Below, piece after piece: positions 1,161-10,321 of a stretch of 10,321 bases of DNA. Each line of letters opens with the position of its first letter. Position 1 is the first letter of the stretch. The position numbers were made by a program, and so were the translations under genes. Source of the DNA: a virus (lineage: Duplodnaviria > Heunggongvirae > Uroviricota > Caudoviricetes); the IMG/VR virus record IMGVR_UViG_2740892234_000013. One strand, 5' to 3'. The notes under the pieces were generated by a model that saw nothing but the letters and a program-made list of their open reading frames with translations, was not told the origin of the DNA and did not search any database.

Positions 1161-1754
1161 ATGTTTACTAAGCGACGATTAAAAAATATTAACTGGGAGG
1201 CAAGTTCAGTGATTCTTGCTATGGTTCTCTTTGTTGGAAATATATTTTATACAAATCATCGTGATGATATAAGCATGGAGGCTGAGAGGGACAGTATCAG
1301 AACAATGTTTGCATATGAAATCACTAATAACCATCGCGCTCTCACTTTTCTTGATAAAACGAGATATATTGGCTTTGACGAAAATTCGGAGCATTTTGTT
1401 GGCGAGCCTTTTGCCATTAATGTCAAATCATTAGGGGGGCCTCGCTTACAGATTGCATTAAACCAGACTGATAAAGTGTTTAAATCCTACTTCAGCGAAT
1501 TAAGTAAGCTTGATAAAGAGGATGTTACTCTTCTTATGGACTATTACCATGAGCAAAGCATCCTGCTGGAGCGTGTAAAATCTACGTTACAGAAGATGAA
1601 AAGTGGTAATGATATTAAAGTTGATATTGATGGTTACTTATTAGAAGAACACTTCATGAATGAGCTTAATCTTTCTAATATTTTGCTTAAACGCTATAGC
1701 CATTTGTTGTCACAATACGCTAAAGAACATAAAACAAAAGATTTACATAATTGA
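1161..1754 (+). CDS. Hypothetical membrane-anchored protein of unknown function; cargo (moron) gene at the Z/fun-equivalent position
   Basis: 197-aa ORF with an AAGG Shine-Dalgarno at 1151-1154, 6 nt before the ATG. The N-terminus has basic residues (KRRLK) followed by one hydrophobic segment (SSVILAMVLFVGNIFY), i.e. a probable signal-anchor or uncleaved signal. The rest is hydrophilic and contains no Cys. The region is AT-rich: I counted 18 G+C in the 60 nt 1201-1260 versus 38 in 2101-2160 inside FI. I recognise no known family. Confidence 0.6.
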   Translation: MFTKRRLKNINWEASSVILAMVLFVGNIFYTNHRDDISMEAERDSIRTMFAYEITNNHRALTFLDKTRYIGFDENSEHFVGEPFAINVKSLGGPRLQIALNQTDKVFKSYFSELSKLDKEDVTLLMDYYHEQSILLERVKSTLQKMKSGNDIKVDIDGYLLEEHFMNELNLSNILLKRYSHLLSQYAKEHKTKDLHN

Positions 1755-3286: not shown

Positions 3287-3805
3287 ATGGCAATGCCGCG
3301 CAAACTCAAGTTAATGAACGTCTTTCTGAACGGCTACAGCTATCAGGGCGTTGCAAAGTCCGTCACGCTGCCAAAACTGACCCGTAAACTCGAAAACTAT
3401 CGCGGTGCGGGGATGAACGGAAGCGCACCGGTAGACCTCGGCCTTGATGACGATGCGCTGTCAATGGAGTGGTCGCTCGGTGGTTTCCCGGATTCGGTTA
3501 TCTGGGAGCTTTACGCAGCAACCGGTGTGGATGCCGTGCCGATTCGTTTTGCAGGCTCTTACCAGCGCGACGATACCGGCGAAACGGTGGCCGTCGAGGT
3601 GGTCATGCGTGGACGTCAGAAAGAAATCGACACCGGCGAGGGTAAACAGGGAGAAGACACCGAGTCGAAAATCTCCGTGGTCTGCACCTATTTCCGGCTG
3701 ACGATGGACGGTAAGGAGCTGGTCGAAATCGACACCATCAACATGATTGAGAAGGTGAACGGCGTCGACCGGCTGGAGCAACACCGCCGCAATATCGGCC
3801 TGTAA
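3287..3805 (+). CDS. FII: Tail tube protein (P2 gpFII)
   Basis: 172 aa, the same length as P2 FII. AAGGAG Shine-Dalgarno at 3272-3277. Immediately follows the sheath gene. Confidence 0.9.
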   Translation: MAMPRKLKLMNVFLNGYSYQGVAKSVTLPKLTRKLENYRGAGMNGSAPVDLGLDDDALSMEWSLGGFPDSVIWELYAATGVDAVPIRFAGSYQRDDTGETVAVEVVMRGRQKEIDTGEGKQGEDTESKISVVCTYFRLTMDGKELVEIDTINMIEKVNGVDRLEQHRRNIGL

Positions 3806-3861
3806 TTTTCATCCGGTCAGCCTGGCTGACCGGTTAACCCCGATTCAGAAGTGAGAAAACC

Positions 3862-4137
3862 ATGAACAAAGAAAATGTGATTACCCTGGACAATCCGGTC
3901 AAGCGTGGTGAGCAGGTTATCGAACAGGTCACGCTGATGAAACCCAGTGCGGGGACGCTGCGCGGTGTCAGTCTGGCTGCGGTCGCAAACTCAGAAGTCG
4001 ATGCACTGATTAAGGTGCTGCCGCGCATGACGGCACCGATGCTGACCGAGCAGGAAGTCGCCGCGCTGGAACTGCCTGACCTTGTGGCGCTGGCCGGTAA
4101 GGTGGTCGGTTTTTTGTCGCCGAACTCGGTGCAGTAA
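3862..4137 (+). CDS. E: Tail assembly chaperone gpE (in-frame product)
   Basis: 91 aa, the same length as P2 gpE. Sits between tube and tape-measure genes and ends just after a TTTTTTG slippery heptamer. Confidence 0.9.
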   Translation: MNKENVITLDNPVKRGEQVIEQVTLMKPSAGTLRGVSLAAVANSEVDALIKVLPRMTAPMLTEQEVAALELPDLVALAGKVVGFLSPNSVQ

Positions 4138-4289
4138 CGTTCCCGAAAAATCTGTCGGTCGATGACCTGATGGCGGATGTGGCAGTGATATTTCACTGGC
4201 CGCCATCAGAACTGTATCCCATGAGCCTGACCGAACTCATCACATGGCGCGAAAAGGCGCTCCGGCGAAGCGGAAACACGAATGAGTAA
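3862..4289 (+). CDS. E+E': Tail assembly chaperone gpE+E' made by a -1 programmed frameshift at 4110-4116
   Basis: After the T-run the -1 frame is open to TAA at 4287-4289. My translation of that frame is FVAELGAVTFPKNLSVDDLMADVAVIFHWPPSELYPMSLTELITWREKALRRSGNTNE, which matches the P2 E' extension as I recall it. The stop overlaps the T start codon at 4282. Confidence 0.8.
4110..4116 (+). other. Slippery heptamer TTTTTTG for the E/E' -1 frameshift
   Basis: T(4110) TTTTT(4111-4115) G(4116), 21 nt before the gpE stop. Equivalent to the G/GT and E/E' shift sites of lambda and P2. Confidence 0.75.
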
Positions 4290-6729
4290 CAATGTAAAAT
4301 TACAGGTATTGCTCAGGGCTGTTGACCAGGCATCCCGCCCGTTTAAATCCATCCGCACAGCGAGCAAATCGCTGTCGGGGGATATCCGGGAAACACAAAA
4401 ATCACTGCGCGAGCTGAACGGTCAGGCATCCCGTATTGAGGGATTTCGCAAGACCAGTGCACAGCTCGCCGTGACTGGTCATGCACTTGAAAAGGCACGG
4501 CAGGAGGCCGAAGCCCTTGCCACACAGTTTAAAAACACCGAACGTCCGACACGTGCTCAGGCGAAAGTGCTGGAATCAGCAAAGCGTGCGGCGGAGGACT
4601 TACAGGCGAAATATAACCGCCTGACGGATTCCGTTAAACGCCAGCAGCGGGAACTGGCCGTTGTGGGAATTAATACCCGCAATCTTGCACATGATGAGCA
4701 GGGACTGAAAAACCGTATCAGTGAAACCACCGCACAGCTTAACCGTCAGCGTGACGCGCTGGCGCGTGTCAGTGCGCAACAGGCAAAACTTAACGCAGTA
4801 AAACAGCGTTATCATGCTGGCAAGGAACTGTCCGGAAATATGGCCTCAGTGGGCGCTGCCGGTGTGGGGATTGCGGCGGCGGGAACGATGGCCGGAGTTA
4901 AGCTGCTGATGCCCGGTTATGAGTTTGCGCAGAAAAACTCAGAATTGCAGGCCGTGCTCGGTGTGGCAAAAGATTCCGCCGAAATGGCCGCGCTCCGCAA
5001 ACAGGCGCGCCAGCTCGGCGACAATACCGCCGCCTCAGCGGATGATGCGGCCGGTGCGCAGATTATCATTGCGAAAGCGGGTGGGGATGTTGATGCCATT
5101 CAGGCGGCAACGCCGGTCACGCTGAACATGGCGCTGGCGAACCGCCGCACGATGGAAGAAAACGCCGCCCTGCTGATGGGGATGAAATCCGCCTTTCAGC
5201 TTTCAAACGATAAGGTCGCTCATATCGGGGATGTTCTCTCCGTGACGATGAACAAAACCGCCGCCGATTTTGACGGCATGAGCGATGCGCTGACCTATGC
5301 CGCACCTGTGGCAAAAAATGCCGGTGTCAGCATTGAAGAAACCGCCGCAATGGTCGGGGCGCTGCATGATGCAAAAATTACAGGCTCAATGGCGGGGACG
5401 GGAAGCCGTGCCGTGTTAAGTCGCCTGCAGGCACCAACGGGAAAAGCATGGGATGCACTCAAAGAGCTTGGCGTGAAAACCTCAGACAGCAAGGGAAACA
5501 CCCGGCCAATATTTACCATTCTGAAAGAAATGCAGGCCAGTTTTGAGAAAAACCGGCTCGGTACTGCCCAGCAGGCGGAATACATGAAAACTATTTTCGG
5601 GGAGGAGGCCAGCTCAGCCGCCGCCGTGCTGATGACTGCCGCCTCAACCGGAAAACTGGACAAACTGACCGCTGCGTTTAAAGCCTCAGACGGGAAGACT
5701 GCCGAGCTGGTAAATATCATGCAGGACAACCTCGGCGGTGACTTTAAGGAGTTTCAGTCCGCTTATGAGGCGGTAGGGACAGACCTGTTTGACCAGCAGG
5801 AAGGCGCACTGCGTAAGCTCACACAGACGGCCACAAAGTATGTGTTAAAACTCGACGGCTGGATACAGAAAAACAAATCACTGGCGTCAACCATTGGCAT
5901 CATTGCCGGTGGCGCGCTGGCGCTTACTGGCATCATCGGTGCAATTGGTCTTGTAGCCTGGCCGGTTATCACCGGCATCAATGCCATCATCGCGGCAGCA
6001 GGCGCAATGGGTGCAATCTTCACGACGGTTGGCAGTGCCGTTATGACTGCTATCGGGGCGATTAGCTGGCCGGTTGTGGCAGTGGTGACCGCGATTGTCG
6101 CCGGGGCGTTGCTTATCCGTAAATACTGGGAGCCTGTCAGCGCATTCTTTGGCGGTGTGGTGGAAGGGCTGAAAGCGGCATTTGCGCCGGTGGGAGAACT
6201 GTTCACGCCACTGAAGCCGGTGTTTGACTGGCTGGGGGAAAAGTTACAGGCTGCGTGGCAGTGGTTTAAAAACCTGATTGCACCGGTCAAAGCCACCCGG
6301 GACACCCTGAACCGTTGCCGTGACACGGGCGTCATGTTCGGGCTGGCACTGGCTGACGCGCTGATGCTGCCGCTTAATGCGTTCAACAAATTACGCAGCG
6401 GCATTGACTGGGTACTGGAAAAGCTCGGGGTCATCAACAAAGAGTCAGACACACTTGACCAGACCGCCGCCAGAACTCATGCCGCCACGTATGGCACCGG
6501 TGGTTATATTCCGGCGACCAGCTCTTATGCAGGCTATCAGGCTTATCAGCCGGTCACGGCACCGGCTGGCCGCTCTTATGTGGACCAGAGTAAAAACGAA
6601 TATCACATCAGCCTGACGGGTGGTACTGCACCGGGGACACAGCTTGACCGCCAGTTACAGGATGCGCTCGAAAAATACGAGCGGGATAAACGTGCGCGCG
6701 CCCGTGCCAGCATGATGCATGACGGTTAA
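4282..6729 (+). CDS. T: Tail tape measure protein (P2 gpT)
   Basis: 815 aa, the same length as P2 T. Coiled-coil-like Q/R/A-rich N-terminus and a long Gly/Ala/Ile-rich hydrophobic central segment (GIIAGGALALTGIIGAIGLVAWPVITGINAIIAAAGAMGAIFTTVGSAVMTAIGAISWPVVAVVTAIVAGALL), typical of tape-measure proteins. Confidence 0.9.
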   Translation: MSNNVKLQVLLRAVDQASRPFKSIRTASKSLSGDIRETQKSLRELNGQASRIEGFRKTSAQLAVTGHALEKARQEAEALATQFKNTERPTRAQAKVLESAKRAAEDLQAKYNRLTDSVKRQQRELAVVGINTRNLAHDEQGLKNRISETTAQLNRQRDALARVSAQQAKLNAVKQRYHAGKELSGNMASVGAAGVGIAAAGTMAGVKLLMPGYEFAQKNSELQAVLGVAKDSAEMAALRKQARQLGDNTAASADDAAGAQIIIAKAGGDVDAIQAATPVTLNMALANRRTMEENAALLMGMKSAFQLSNDKVAHIGDVLSVTMNKTAADFDGMSDALTYAAPVAKNAGVSIEETAAMVGALHDAKITGSMAGTGSRAVLSRLQAPTGKAWDALKELGVKTSDSKGNTRPIFTILKEMQASFEKNRLGTAQQAEYMKTIFGEEASSAAAVLMTAASTGKLDKLTAAFKASDGKTAELVNIMQDNLGGDFKEFQSAYEAVGTDLFDQQEGALRKLTQTATKYVLKLDGWIQKNKSLASTIGIIAGGALALTGIIGAIGLVAWPVITGINAIIAAAGAMGAIFTTVGSAVMTAIGAISWPVVAVVTAIVAGALLIRKYWEPVSAFFGGVVEGLKAAFAPVGELFTPLKPVFDWLGEKLQAAWQWFKNLIAPVKATRDTLNRCRDTGVMFGLALADALMLPLNAFNKLRSGIDWVLEKLGVINKESDTLDQTAARTHAATYGTGGYIPATSSYAGYQAYQPVTAPAGRSYVDQSKNEYHISLTGGTAPGTQLDRQLQDALEKYERDKRARARASMMHDG

Positions 6730-8686: not shown

Positions 8687-8698
8687 TTACAAACAGAA

Positions 8699-8724
8699 AG
8701 CCCCTCAGTCGAGGGGCTTTTTTT
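8699..8724 (+). terminator. Rho-independent terminator after ogr
   Basis: Stem AGCCCCTC (8699-8706), loop AGTC, GAGGGGCT (8711-8718), then a run of 7 T. Confidence 0.8.
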
Positions 8725-8788
8725 GTCGATGTGGTCAATGTGTGGACGTGACCAGAAATAAATCCTTTTATTTCAATTTGTTGTACGT

Positions 8789-8815
8789 AAAAAATAAGCC
8801 CGTGTAAGGGAGATT
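8789..8815. other. attR: P2 att core (attR crossover region), prophage/host boundary
   Basis: AAAAAATAAGCCCGTGTAAGGGAGATT matches the 27-bp P2 attP/attB core as I recall it. It lies after ogr, where P2 attP is located, and coincides with the 3' end of cyaR. Confidence 0.7.
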
Positions 8816-8875
8816 ACACAGGCTAAGGAGGTGGTTCCTGGTACAGCTAGCATTTTATGGGTTATGTTTTTCAGC
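8789..8875 (-). ncRNA. cyaR: CyaR (RyeE) small regulatory RNA, Hfq-dependent and CRP-activated
   Basis: The reverse complement of 8789-8875 reads GCTGAAAAACATAACCCATAAAATGCTAGCTGTACCAGGAACCACCTCCTTAGCCTGTGTAATCTCCCTTACACGGGCTTATTTTTT (87 nt), which matches the CyaR sequence as I recall it, including the CCTCCTT motif. The terminator hairpin is GCCTGTGTAA/TTACACGGGC plus a U-tract. Confidence 0.75.
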
Positions 8876-8930
8876 GAAACGGATGATAACCTTAATAAAT
8901 ACAGCTGTATGTGATCGGTTTCTAAGAATT
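8876..8930 (-). promoter_or_regulatory. cyaR promoter with candidate class II CRP site
   Basis: On the - strand, TATCAT sits at 8888-8883 (about -13 to -8 from a 5' end at 8875). A TGTGA half-site at 8910-8914 places a 22-bp CRP window centred at about -41.5; the second half-site (TTTCT) is weak. Confidence 0.4.
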
Positions 8931-8959: not shown

Positions 8960-10321
8960 TCACTTACCGTGGGGATTACGCGTGGTTTCCCCGGAGAAAT
9001 TACGCATCAGCAGCGCGTAATTGAGCTCAAGATCCTGCGGGACCGGGAGCCACACAGTATAACCATCGCCTGGTGCTATCGGCATAGCTTCGCCTTTGGC
9101 GTTTTCCATGTGCTCAAGGGTAAAATTAATGTTGCCTTGCGGCGTCATCAGCTCAAGGCTGTCGCCAACGGAGAATTTATTTTTCACCGCTACCGCCGCG
9201 AGGTCCCCCTTGCGCTCACCGGTAAACTCACCAACAAACTGCTGGCGGTCAGAAACTGAATAACCGTATTCGTAGTTCTGATAATCGTCGTGAGTATGAC
9301 GACGCAGGAAACCTTCGGTATAGCCACGATGCGCCAGGCCTTCCAGGGTTTCCAGCAGGCTGGTGTCAAACGGTTTGCCCGCAGCGGCGTCATCAATAGC
9401 TTTGCGGTAAACCTGTGCGGTGCGTGCGCAATAGTAGAAAGATTTGGTACGGCCTTCGATTTTCAGCGAATGCACGCCCATTTTGGTCAGGCGTTCTACA
9501 TGGGCGATAGCGCGCAGATCTTTCGAGTTCATGATGTAAGTGCCGTGCTCATCTTCAAACGCGGTCATATACTCGCCCGGACGCTGGGCTTCTTCGATCA
9601 TAAACACTTTGTCGGTTGGTGCGCCGATACCCAGCGTCGGCTCAACATTTTGCACCGGAATCGGCTCGTACTTGTGTACGATGTTGCCAACATCATCTTC
9701 TTTCCCTTCCTGGACGTTGTACTCCCAGCGGCAGGCGTTGGTGCAGGTGCCCTGGTTCGGGTCGCGCTTGTTGATATAGCCAGAGAGCAGGCAGCGACCG
9801 GAGTAGGCCATGCACAGCGCGCCGTGCACGAAGATCTCTACCTCCATATCCGGCACCTGATTGCGGATCTCTTCAATCTCTTCCAGCGACAGCTCGCGAG
9901 AGAGGATCACGCGGGTCAGTCCCATTTGCTGCCAGAATTTCACCGTCGCCCAGTTCACGGCGTTAGCCTGTACCGAGAGATGGATCGGCATTTCAGGGAA
10001 GTGCTCCCGCACCAGCATAATCAGCCCCGGATCGGACATAATCAGCGCATCCGGCCCCATTTCCACCACCGGTTTCAGGTCACGGATAAAGGTTTTCAGC
10101 TTGGCGTTGTGCGGTGCAATGTTGACCACGACATAAAACTTTTTCCCCAGCGCGTGGGCTTCATTGATGCCGAGCTGAAGATTTTCGTGGTTGAATTCGT
10201 TGTTGCGCACACGCAGGGAATAACGCGGCTGGCCCGCATAAACAGCATCTGCGCCATAAGCGAAAGCGTAACGCATATTTTTCAGCGTTCCCGCCGGGGA
10301 AAGGAGTTCCGGTTTAAACAT
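8960..10321 (-). CDS. trhP: U32-family peptidase-like protein YegQ/TrhP (prephenate-dependent tRNA U34 hydroxylation)
   Basis: Complete 453-aa ORF whose start codon is the last 3 nt of the window on the - strand. The sequence (MFKPELLSPAGTLKNMRYAFAYGADAVYAGQPRYSLR...) matches E. coli YegQ as I recall it, which is also 453 aa. GC-rich host-like composition. Confidence 0.85.
   Translation of the reverse strand: MFKPELLSPAGTLKNMRYAFAYGADAVYAGQPRYSLRVRNNEFNHENLQLGINEAHALGKKFYVVVNIAPHNAKLKTFIRDLKPVVEMGPDALIMSDPGLIMLVREHFPEMPIHLSVQANAVNWATVKFWQQMGLTRVILSRELSLEEIEEIRNQVPDMEVEIFVHGALCMAYSGRCLLSGYINKRDPNQGTCTNACRWEYNVQEGKEDDVGNIVHKYEPIPVQNVEPTLGIGAPTDKVFMIEEAQRPGEYMTAFEDEHGTYIMNSKDLRAIAHVERLTKMGVHSLKIEGRTKSFYYCARTAQVYRKAIDDAAAGKPFDTSLLETLEGLAHRGYTEGFLRRHTHDDYQNYEYGYSVSDRQQFVGEFTGERKGDLAAVAVKNKFSVGDSLELMTPQGNINFTLEHMENAKGEAMPIAPGDGYTVWLPVPQDLELNYALLMRNFSGETTRNPHGK

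What the first reader, a model, noticed from the sequence alone, without database searches (positions are those of the whole stretch)
3862..4289. Conserved -1 programmed frameshift producing gpE+E' upstream of the tape measure gene
The slippery heptamer TTTTTTG (4110-4116) lies near the end of E, and the -1 frame stays open for 58 more codons to a stop overlapping the T start. This is the known P2 E/E' recoding site and is functionally analogous to lambda G/GT. It is often missed by automatic annotation, and it confirms that the tail assembly module is intact rather than decayed.
Basis: partly seen in the sequence, partly recalled or inferred. Interest (0 to 1): 0.45.

Follow-up and report, generated by a model that had tools for sequence, protein, structure and literature searches.

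The report
Known P2 E/E' tail-chaperone frameshift
This is the already described -1 ribosomal frameshift site of phage P2 tail genes E and E+E', present unchanged in a P2-like prophage of E. coli, so it is real but ordinary.

Summary
Gene E runs 3862-4137 (91 aa). The heptamer T_TTT_TTG lies at 4110-4116 in the X_XXY_YYZ phase. The -1 frame stays open to TAA at 4287-4289, which overlaps the ATG of tape-measure gene T (4282) as ATGAGTAA.

The window is the right end of a P2-like prophage, colinear with the P2 F operon (FI-FII-E-E'-T-U-D-ogr) with no indel. The predicted 91-aa E and 142-aa E+E' proteins are identical to P2 TAP_BPP2 and TAPFS_BPP2 (NP_046780.1 / O64312). The E' part matches Pfam PF06528 at 1.2e-21.

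The cassette is conserved: 80 of 80 IMG/VR relatives and 12 of 15 divergent phages keep the in-phase TTTTTTG. The other three carry TTTTTTC, AAATTTT or GGGAAAG.

No 3' stimulatory RNA structure is detectable, as the literature reports for P2. Annotation pipelines do often split E' off as a separate 39-aa "GpE family" ORF.

"Confirms the tail module is intact" is only partly justified. All F-operon ORFs in the window are full length, but expression and the rest of the prophage were not tested.

Verdict: already known, low interest.

The parts
3862..4137 (+). Gene E (zero frame), 91-aa tail assembly chaperone gpE
   Evidence: ORF. Pfam PF10109 Phage_TAC_7 at 1.5e-12. Exact sequence equals UniProt TAP_BPP2. 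100% aa identity to P2 E.
4110..4116 (+). Slippery heptamer T_TTT_TTG, the site of the -1 shift
   Evidence: Aligns with the annotated P2 frameshift site. Conserved in phase in 80 of 80 IMG/VR relatives and in 12 of 15 divergent phages.
4116..4289 (+). E' reading frame (-1 relative to E): 57 codons plus TAA. It encodes the C-terminal extension of gpE+E', residues 86-142.
   Evidence: Pfam PF06528 Phage_P2_GpE at 1.2e-21 on residues 104-139 of the fusion. PHROG 1756 and 6416 'tail'. The fusion equals NP_046780.1/O64312.
3862..4289 (+). Whole E+E' recoded gene (142-aa product), join 3862..4116 with 4116..4289
   Evidence: Same length (428 nt) and same position as the joined P2 CDS P2p25.
4282..6729 (+). 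Gene T, tape measure protein (815 aa). Its ATG overlaps the E' stop as ATGAGTAA.
   Evidence: Pfam PF10145 at 2.1e-45. 98.3% aa identity to P2 T.
3287..3805 (+). Gene FII, tail tube protein, immediately upstream
   Evidence: Pfam PF04985 at 2.3e-60. 100% aa identity to P2 FII.
4100..4107 (+). Shine-Dalgarno-like AGGTGGTC, 2 nt upstream of the heptamer. Possible modulator of the shift; not established.
   Evidence: Anti-SD duplex of -14 kcal/mol, in the top 1% of in-frame 22-nt windows of the operon. Synonymous-recoding test P = 0.04 here and 0.08-0.25 in the other lineages that use TTTTTTG or TTTTTTC.

Best explanation
This is the programmed -1 ribosomal frameshift cassette of a P2-type (Peduovirus) tail gene operon.

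Most ribosomes translating E terminate at TAA 4135-4137 and make the 91-aa chaperone gpE. A minority slip back one base on U_UUU_UUG. The published figure for P2 is roughly 10%, described as 2-3 fold above lambda's roughly 1 in 30. In the standard model, the P-site tRNA-Phe re-pairs from UUU to UUU and the A-site tRNA-Leu re-pairs from UUG to UUU. Translation then continues with GUC (Val) in the -1 frame for 57 codons, giving the 142-aa gpE+E'. This product ends 5 nt after the start of the ATG of tape-measure gene T.

By analogy with lambda gpG/gpGT, the shared N-terminal domain is thought to coat the tape measure protein gpT. The E' extension is thought to recruit the tube protein FII. The fixed E to E+E' ratio would be set by the shift efficiency, and neither protein stays in the virion.

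What is shown here: sequence anatomy, identity to P2, conservation of the site and of the -1 frame protein, and absence of a 3' structure. What is inferred from the literature or by analogy: that the shift occurs, its efficiency, and the chaperone roles.
For: - Heptamer in phase, with an open -1 frame of 57 codons.
- DNA 98.8% identical to P2 and colinear with the P2 features E, E+E' and 'site of -1 translational frameshift'.
- The predicted fusion equals NP_046780.1/O64312 and E equals TAP_BPP2.
- PF10109 on the E part and PF06528 on the E' part.
- Gene order is tube, then E/E', then tape measure.
- Substitutions against relatives fall mostly on third positions of the -1 frame. Amino-acid identity is higher in that frame than in the other two.
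- 80 of 80 IMG/VR relatives (77 unique sequences) keep the in-phase TTTTTTG and a 57-codon extension.
- In 401 of 418 matching phage records the fusion protein aligns over at least 80% of its length; all such rows listed show two pieces, which fits two reading frames.
- Twelve of 15 divergent phages, with hosts from Escherichia to Burkholderia, Ralstonia, Pseudomonas, Aeromonas and Acidovorax, keep T_TTT_TTG. The rest use T_TTT_TTC, A_AAT_TTT or G_GGA_AAG in the same place and phase.
- Literature: P2 shifts at TTTTTTG to give 91-aa E and 142-aa E+E', with no downstream hairpin (PMC3091744). Efficiency in P2 is 2-3 fold above lambda (PMC5009743).
- My recollection of the abstract of Christie et al. 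2002 (J Bacteriol 184:6522; paper not held): E' is essential, lacks an initiation site, and is made at about 10%.
Against: Nothing in the data contradicts it. The limits are these:
- No expression data exist for this particular prophage.
- No 3' stimulator was found (z = -0.96; 0 conserved pairs). What sets the efficiency is therefore unexplained.
- U_UUU_UUG is not among the most shift-prone heptamers tested in E. coli. [quoted passage not shown]
- The chaperone roles of gpE and gpE+E' rest on analogy to lambda, not on P2 biochemistry that I could read.
Confidence: 0.95

Rival explanations
1. Transcriptional slippage. RNA polymerase stutters on the T6 run and adds one U to a fraction of transcripts. 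Standard translation of these transcripts would give E+E'.
For: The site is a homopolymeric run of six T. A weak hairpin-plus-T-run pattern that resembles a terminator or pause site is flagged at 4089-4116. Fusion-protein assays alone would not separate the two mechanisms.
Against: - Bacterial transcriptional slippage is described for runs of about 9 A or T (PMC5009743). Six is short.
- The heptamer is in the ribosomal X_XXY_YYZ phase in every relative examined.
- Relatives replace it with A_AAT_TTT or G_GGA_AAG, which have no long homopolymer but are classical tandem-slippage heptamers.
- The upstream hairpin is not significant (z = -0.7) and not conserved.
Confidence: 0.03
2. E' is an independent small gene, as annotated by PGAP. 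It would initiate at ATG 4170 and give a 39-aa 'GpE family' protein, with no recoding.
For: Many public records annotate it this way. An in-frame ATG exists at 4170.
Against: - The -1 frame is open all the way back to the heptamer in all 15 divergent phages. The residues between the heptamer and that Met are conserved in the close relatives (VAE.G...P..L.VDDL).
- The Met is not conserved. It is Val in the Klebsiella phages, Ala in Ralstonia RSA1 and Ile in Acidovorax.
- No promoter-like site was found in 3600-4400, and by eye I see no Shine-Dalgarno motif before 4170.
- The P2 reference record annotates E+E' as a -1 frameshift product sharing its amino terminus with gpE, and as essential.
- Genetics in P2: E' lacks an initiation site and is translated as an extension of E (Christie et al. 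2002, recalled from memory).
Confidence: 0.02
3. Chance coincidence of a T-run and an open alternative frame, with no function.
For: The bare heptamer occurs at the chance rate in the window.
Against: Pfam hit at 1.2e-21 in the -1 frame. Conservation across genera and host phyla. A synonymous-biased substitution pattern in the -1 frame.
Confidence: 0.003

Closest known systems
Bacteriophage P2 genes E and E+E' (P2p26/P2p25; UniProt TAP_BPP2 and TAPFS_BPP2; Christie et al. 2002, J Bacteriol 184:6522)
   Same: Identical E and E+E' protein sequences. Same heptamer, same phase, same 428-nt span, same overlap with T, and same flanking genes.
   Different: Ten silent nucleotide differences across the 428 nt: 7 in E including its stop codon (TAA here, TGA in P2) and 3 more downstream in E', the stop-codon change also being silent in E'. 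The element here is a prophage integrated next to cyaR/yegQ rather than the reference phage genome.
Phage lambda G/GT tail assembly chaperone frameshift (Levin, Hendrix and Casjens 1993; Xu, Hendrix and Duda 2004, 2013, 2014)
   Same: Same logic. Two proteins share an N-terminus and are made from a gene pair between the major tail (tube) gene and the tape measure gene by a -1 shift near the end of the first ORF. The products are chaperones that are absent from virions (PMC5009743; PMC3091744).
   Different: Different heptamer: G_GGA_AAG in lambda, T_TTT_TTG here. The P2 relative Mannheimia PHL101 does use G_GGA_AAG. Efficiency in P2 is reported as 2-3 fold higher. This is a contractile-tail phage. 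I recall that the abstract of Christie et al. 2002 reports no sequence similarity between the P2 and lambda tail gene products; I did not test this here.
E. coli dnaX -1 frameshift (A_AAA_AAG with a 5' SD and a 3' stem-loop)
   Same: A -1 tandem slippage on a homopolymer-rich heptamer in E. coli, with an SD-like sequence upstream.
   Different: No 3' stem-loop here. The SD-like element lies 2 nt from the heptamer, not the 9-14 nt reported as stimulatory for -1 shifts (PMC5009743). The efficiency is far lower than the 50% of dnaX.

Membership tests
P2-type E/E+E' tail assembly chaperone recoding cassette (Peduoviridae) | Located between the tail tube gene (FII) and the tape measure gene (T) | tested here: met
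   FII is 3287-3805 (PF04985). T is 4282-6729 (PF10145)..
P2-type E/E+E' tail assembly chaperone recoding cassette (Peduoviridae) | The upstream ORF belongs to the gpE chaperone family (Pfam PF10109 Phage_TAC_7) | tested here: met
   E = 1.5e-12, 47.8 bits against a cutoff of 25. Exact match to TAP_BPP2.
P2-type E/E+E' tail assembly chaperone recoding cassette (Peduoviridae) | In-phase slippery heptamer (T_TTT_TTG) a few codons before the E stop | tested here: met
   Heptamer at 4110-4116, in phase X_XXY_YYZ, 7 codons before the stop.
P2-type E/E+E' tail assembly chaperone recoding cassette (Peduoviridae) | The -1 frame extension encodes the conserved GpE (E') domain (Pfam PF06528) and ends at or overlapping the T start | tested here: met
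   PF06528 at 1.2e-21. The stop at 4287-4289 overlaps the ATG at 4282.
P2-type E/E+E' tail assembly chaperone recoding cassette (Peduoviridae) | E' has no translation initiation signal of its own | tested here: inconclusive
   The -1 frame is open and conserved back to the heptamer, and the internal Met is not conserved in relatives. No promoter-like site was found. Absence of initiation at ATG 4170 cannot be proven from sequence.
P2-type E/E+E' tail assembly chaperone recoding cassette (Peduoviridae) | A 142-aa fusion is actually produced (about 10% of E) and is essential for tail assembly | not testable with these tools
   Known for P2 from the literature (Christie et al. 2002 recalled from memory). 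Not measured for this prophage.
Lambda-type G/GT conserved tail chaperone frameshift (functional class of Xu, Hendrix and Duda 2004) | Two overlapping ORFs between the major tail gene and the tape measure gene, linked by a -1 shift near the end of the first | tested here: met
Lambda-type G/GT conserved tail chaperone frameshift (functional class of Xu, Hendrix and Duda 2004) | Sequence homology to lambda gpG/gpGT | not tested
   Only PF10109 and PF06528 were hit in the Pfam scan at E up to 0.01. No direct comparison with lambda G/T was run. The class is defined by synteny and mechanism, not by homology.

The most novel reading that the evidence does not exclude
The Shine-Dalgarno-like sequence AGGTGGTC (4100-4107), 2 nt 5' of the heptamer, could be a selected mRNA:16S rRNA stimulator or tuner of the -1 shift. 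It would act at a spacing, or in an anti-SD register (pairing to GAUCACCU), different from the 9-14 nt known for dnaX. That would explain how P2-type phages reach an efficiency 2-3 fold above lambda with no 3' structure.

Strong anti-SD complementarity (top 1-5% of local in-frame windows) is found upstream of the site in all 12 of the 14 lineages tested that use TTTTTTG or TTTTTTC. It is absent in the two lineages that use AAATTTT or GGGAAAG.

Most of the signal is explained by the conserved (K/E)-V-(V/I)-G-F-L amino acids. Synonymous-recoding tests give only P = 0.04-0.25 per lineage, and the lineages are not independent.
Probability: 0.12. Interest if true: 0.35.

Novelty: already known. Interest (0 to 1): 0.08.

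Why it matters
It matters mainly for annotation quality. The E+E' fusion should be annotated as one CDS with ribosomal slippage. At present the 39-aa "GpE family phage tail protein" fragment propagates through about 1000 contigs for this exact sequence alone.

An unchanged recoding cassette inside a full-length, P2-colinear F operon is weak supporting evidence that this prophage can still build tails. No open biological question is advanced. The site, its product and its role have been described for P2 since 2002, and its conservation in P2-like phages is published.

Tried and rejected
1. A 3' stimulatory structure. Folding 4117-4200 gives z = -0.96. RNAalifold on 11 relatives gives zero conserved pairs. 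Rfam finds nothing at the site. Rejected, in line with the literature.

2. A 5' hairpin or intrinsic terminator. The pattern scan flags 4089-4110 plus the T-run. The stem has 4 G-U pairs, z = -0.7, and it is not conserved in 14 relatives. Rejected as a pattern artefact.

3. A 5' SD-like stimulator. It is notable against local windows but only marginal once the amino-acid sequence is held fixed. Kept only as the 'novel case'.

4. A solved structure for gpE/E+E'. There is no meaningful PDB sequence match; the best has E = 0.88.

5. The primary paper, Christie et al. 2002, could not be read. Statements about about 10% efficiency, essentiality and the lack of an initiation site rest on my memory of its abstract. 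They are partly corroborated by PMC3091744 and PMC5009743.

6. Junction residue. The variants ...GFF|VAEL... The P2 reference protein is ...GFL|VAEL..., as tandem slippage predicts.

Full report
**1. What is in the sequence**

Reading 3700-4500 and listing ORFs shows an ATG-initiated ORF at 3862-4137 of 91 aa. TTTTTTG lies at 4110-4116. Because (4110-3862) mod 3 = 2, the zero-frame codons are GGT TTT TTG, so the heptamer is in the X_XXY_YYZ phase required for tandem -1 slippage.

The -1 frame read from 4110 is open to TAA at 4287-4289. That is 57 sense codons after the heptamer. The ATG of the next long ORF (4282-6729, 815 aa) overlaps this stop as ATGAGTAA. Every coordinate in the finding is therefore exact.

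**2. Is it more than chance?**

The heptamer alone is not unusual: 3 copies in the window against 3.0 expected. One of the other two (8719-8725) is the U-tract of the ogr/F-operon terminator.

Within the seven F-operon genes there are only five in-phase X_XXY_YYZ heptamers with Y = A or T. Only this one sits a few codons (7) before the zero-frame stop and opens into a long -1 frame; the others extend 5-33 codons. Only 3.7% of 57-codon windows in the alternative + frames of these genes are free of stops.

The decisive point is that the -1 extension is a recognisable protein domain, Pfam PF06528 'Phage P2 GpE', at E = 1.2e-21. The zero-frame part is PF10109 'Phage tail assembly chaperone proteins E, or 41 or 14', at E = 1.5e-12. 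PHROGs agree, with tail families 103, 1756 and 6416.

**3. Identity with P2**

- Megablast of 3700-4500 finds 82 phage records, all P2-like, at up to 99.1% identity.
- The P2 reference record NC_001895 annotates, at exactly homologous positions, CDS E, a joined CDS E+E' ('shares amino terminus with gpE; -1 frameshift; essential tail protein') and a misc_feature 'site of -1 translational frameshift'.
- Applying the same slippage rule to the window and to P2 yields identical 142-aa proteins.
- An exact-sequence look-up shows that this protein (junction ...GFL|VAEL...) is NP_046780.1 / AAD03292.1 / UniProt O64312 'Tail assembly protein E'' (TAPFS_BPP2). The 91-aa E is TAP_BPP2.
- The alternative junctions GFF|V and GFLF|A do not correspond to the P2 reference.

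**4. Context**

From FI to ogr the window is colinear with P2 at a constant offset of 1431 nt. The ORF lengths are identical (396, 172, 91, 815, 159, 387 and 72 aa), there are no internal stops, and amino-acid identity is 97.7-100%.

Similarity to phages ends at 8775-8815. That is where the 27-nt P2 att core sits, at 8789-8815. It overlaps the 3' end of the sRNA gene cyaR (8792-8877, minus strand; Rfam 100.7 bits). The host gene yegQ/trhP follows at 8960-10321 on the minus strand.

The window is therefore the right arm of a P2-like prophage in an E. coli chromosome. The E/E' segment occurs in 1582 of 5426 complete E. coli genomes.

**5. Conservation of the recoding signal**

Among 80 IMG/VR relatives (77 unique nucleotide sequences), all keep the in-phase TTTTTTG and a 57-codon extension.

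A tblastn of the fusion finds 418 phage records. In 401 of them the fusion aligns over at least 80% of its length. All such rows listed show two pieces, which fits two reading frames.

I extracted 15 divergent representatives covering Peduovirus, Vimunumvirus, Eganvirus, Duonihilunusvirus, Gegavirus, Elveevirus, Tigrvirus, Aresaunavirus, Citexvirus, Piscesmortuivirus, Xuanwuvirus, Vhmlvirus, Baylorvirus and an unclassified Acidovorax phage. Twelve have T_TTT_TTG. Vibrio MAR has T_TTT_TTC, Escherichia phage 503458 has A_AAT_TTT, and Mannheimia PHL101 has G_GGA_AAG, the lambda heptamer. All are in phase and followed by a -1 ORF of 51-71 codons encoding the conserved ...(I/V)FHWPP...W(R/H)... domain.

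Against relatives, differences concentrate on third positions of the -1 frame. Amino-acid identity is higher in that frame than in the other two. All three differences from P2 in the E' region are silent in that frame. One of them changes the E stop from TGA to TAA while remaining GTG to GTA (Val) in E'.

**6. Mechanism**

No 3' stimulator is evident. The 84 nt after the site fold no better than shuffles (z = -0.96). RNAalifold on 11 relatives predicts no pairs. Rfam has no hit there. This agrees with published statements that P2 and its Burkholderia relatives lack a downstream hairpin (PMC3091744).

The best-supported mechanism is simple tandem slippage on U_UUU_UUG. The review PMC5009743 states that P2-type efficiency is 2-3 fold above lambda's roughly 1:30. 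This is consistent with the figure of about 10% that I recall from Christie et al. 2002, a paper I could not open.

Transcriptional slippage is unlikely for three reasons. The run is only six T, whereas about nine is typical. The ribosomal phase is always kept. Some relatives use heptamers that lack a homopolymer.

Independent initiation of E' at ATG 4170, as PGAP annotates it, is also unlikely. The -1 frame is open back to the heptamer in all relatives, with conserved residues in the close ones, and that Met is replaced by Val, Ala or Ile in relatives.

**7. Function**

By position (tube gene, then E/E', then tape measure gene) and by the literature, gpE and gpE+E' are the P2 counterparts of lambda gpG and gpGT. 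Those are chaperones that coat the tape measure and recruit the tube subunit in a ratio fixed by the shift frequency, and they are absent from virions. This step is an analogy. It is not shown here.

**8. A side observation**

Two nucleotides upstream of the heptamer lies AGGTGGTC (4100-4107). It can form 8 pairs with the 3' end of 16S rRNA (GAUCACCU). The predicted duplex of -14 kcal/mol is in the top 1% of in-frame 22-nt windows of the operon.

Comparable complementarity is present upstream of the site in all 12 tested lineages that use TTTTTTG or TTTTTTC. It is absent in the two lineages that use other heptamers.

When the amino-acid sequence is held fixed and codons are resampled, the observed pairing is only marginally unusual (P = 0.04-0.25 per lineage), and the lineages share ancestry. 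The spacing also does not match the 9-14 nt reported for SD stimulation of -1 shifts; 3 nt is the +1 spacing (PMC5009743). I therefore treat this as an untested possibility, not a finding.

A terminator-like pattern flagged at 4089-4110 is neither significant nor conserved.

**9. Annotation claim**

P2_4E6b, several Klebsiella and Yersinia phages and RefSeq E. coli genomes annotate E plus a separate 39-40-aa 'GpE family' or 'hypothetical' ORF. That exact 39-aa sequence is recorded on about 1000 contigs.

**10. Verdict**

Novelty is none: this is the P2 E/E+E' site itself, with identical protein products.

The clause about the module being 'intact' is reasonable for the F operon within the window. 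It does not follow from the frameshift site alone and says nothing about the rest of the prophage. Interest is low.

Noticed in passing
window 8789-8877 and 8960-10321: Prophage-host junction. The 27-nt P2 att core AAAAAATAAGCCCGTGTAAGGGAGATT lies at 8789-8815, where identity to P2-like phages ends. It overlaps the 3' end of the sRNA gene cyaR/ryeE (8792-8877, minus strand, Rfam RF00112 at 100.7 bits). The host gene yegQ/trhP (peptidase U32 family) follows on the minus strand. As I recall, this is the site that carries the ogrK P2 remnant in E. coli K-12.
   Followed up: partly
window 1161-1754 (+): A 197-aa ORF between the tail fibre assembly gene (412-939) and FI, in the slot where P2 carries fun(Z). 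It matches only PHROG 3829 'unknown function' (9e-137), with no Pfam and no PADLOC hit. An E. coli prophage with a 100% identical E/E' region has a restriction endonuclease in this slot. This looks like a variable cargo ('moron') position, so the ORF is a candidate host-benefit or defence gene.
   Followed up: partly
window 3813-3833 (+): A strong hairpin, CCGGTCAGCC-T-GGCTGACCGG, between FII and E (-16.5 kcal/mol, z = -3.9, 0 of 200 shuffles as stable), with no U-tract after it. Phage 186 annotates a 'tI partial terminator' between the homologous genes. It may lower transcription of E-T-U-D relative to the sheath and tube genes.
   Followed up: partly
window 4100-4107 (+): A Shine-Dalgarno-like AGGTGGTC lies 2 nt upstream of the slippery heptamer. 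Strong anti-SD complementarity recurs upstream of the site in 12 of 14 divergent relatives. It is largely explained by conserved amino acids (synonymous-recoding P = 0.04-0.25).
   Followed up: partly
L095 534-540; L094 552-558; L097 582-588: Relatives have swapped the heptamer. Vibrio phage MAR uses T_TTT_TTC, Escherichia phage 503458 uses A_AAT_TTT, and Mannheimia phage PHL101 uses G_GGA_AAG (the lambda G/GT heptamer). Each is at the homologous position and in phase.
   Followed up: partly
window 8719-8725 and 8698-8718: The second + strand TTTTTTG is the U-tract of the rho-independent terminator after ogr (hairpin AAAGCCCCTC..GAGGGGCTTT). It has seven T here and six in P2.
   Followed up: no
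L008 6509-6628 (NZ_CP151161.1), and window 4170-4289: RefSeq/PGAP annotates E' as a stand-alone 39-aa 'GpE family phage tail protein' starting at an internal ATG, instead of as a ribosomal-slippage CDS. This exact 39-aa sequence is on about 1000 contigs in the public protein collection.
   Followed up: yes
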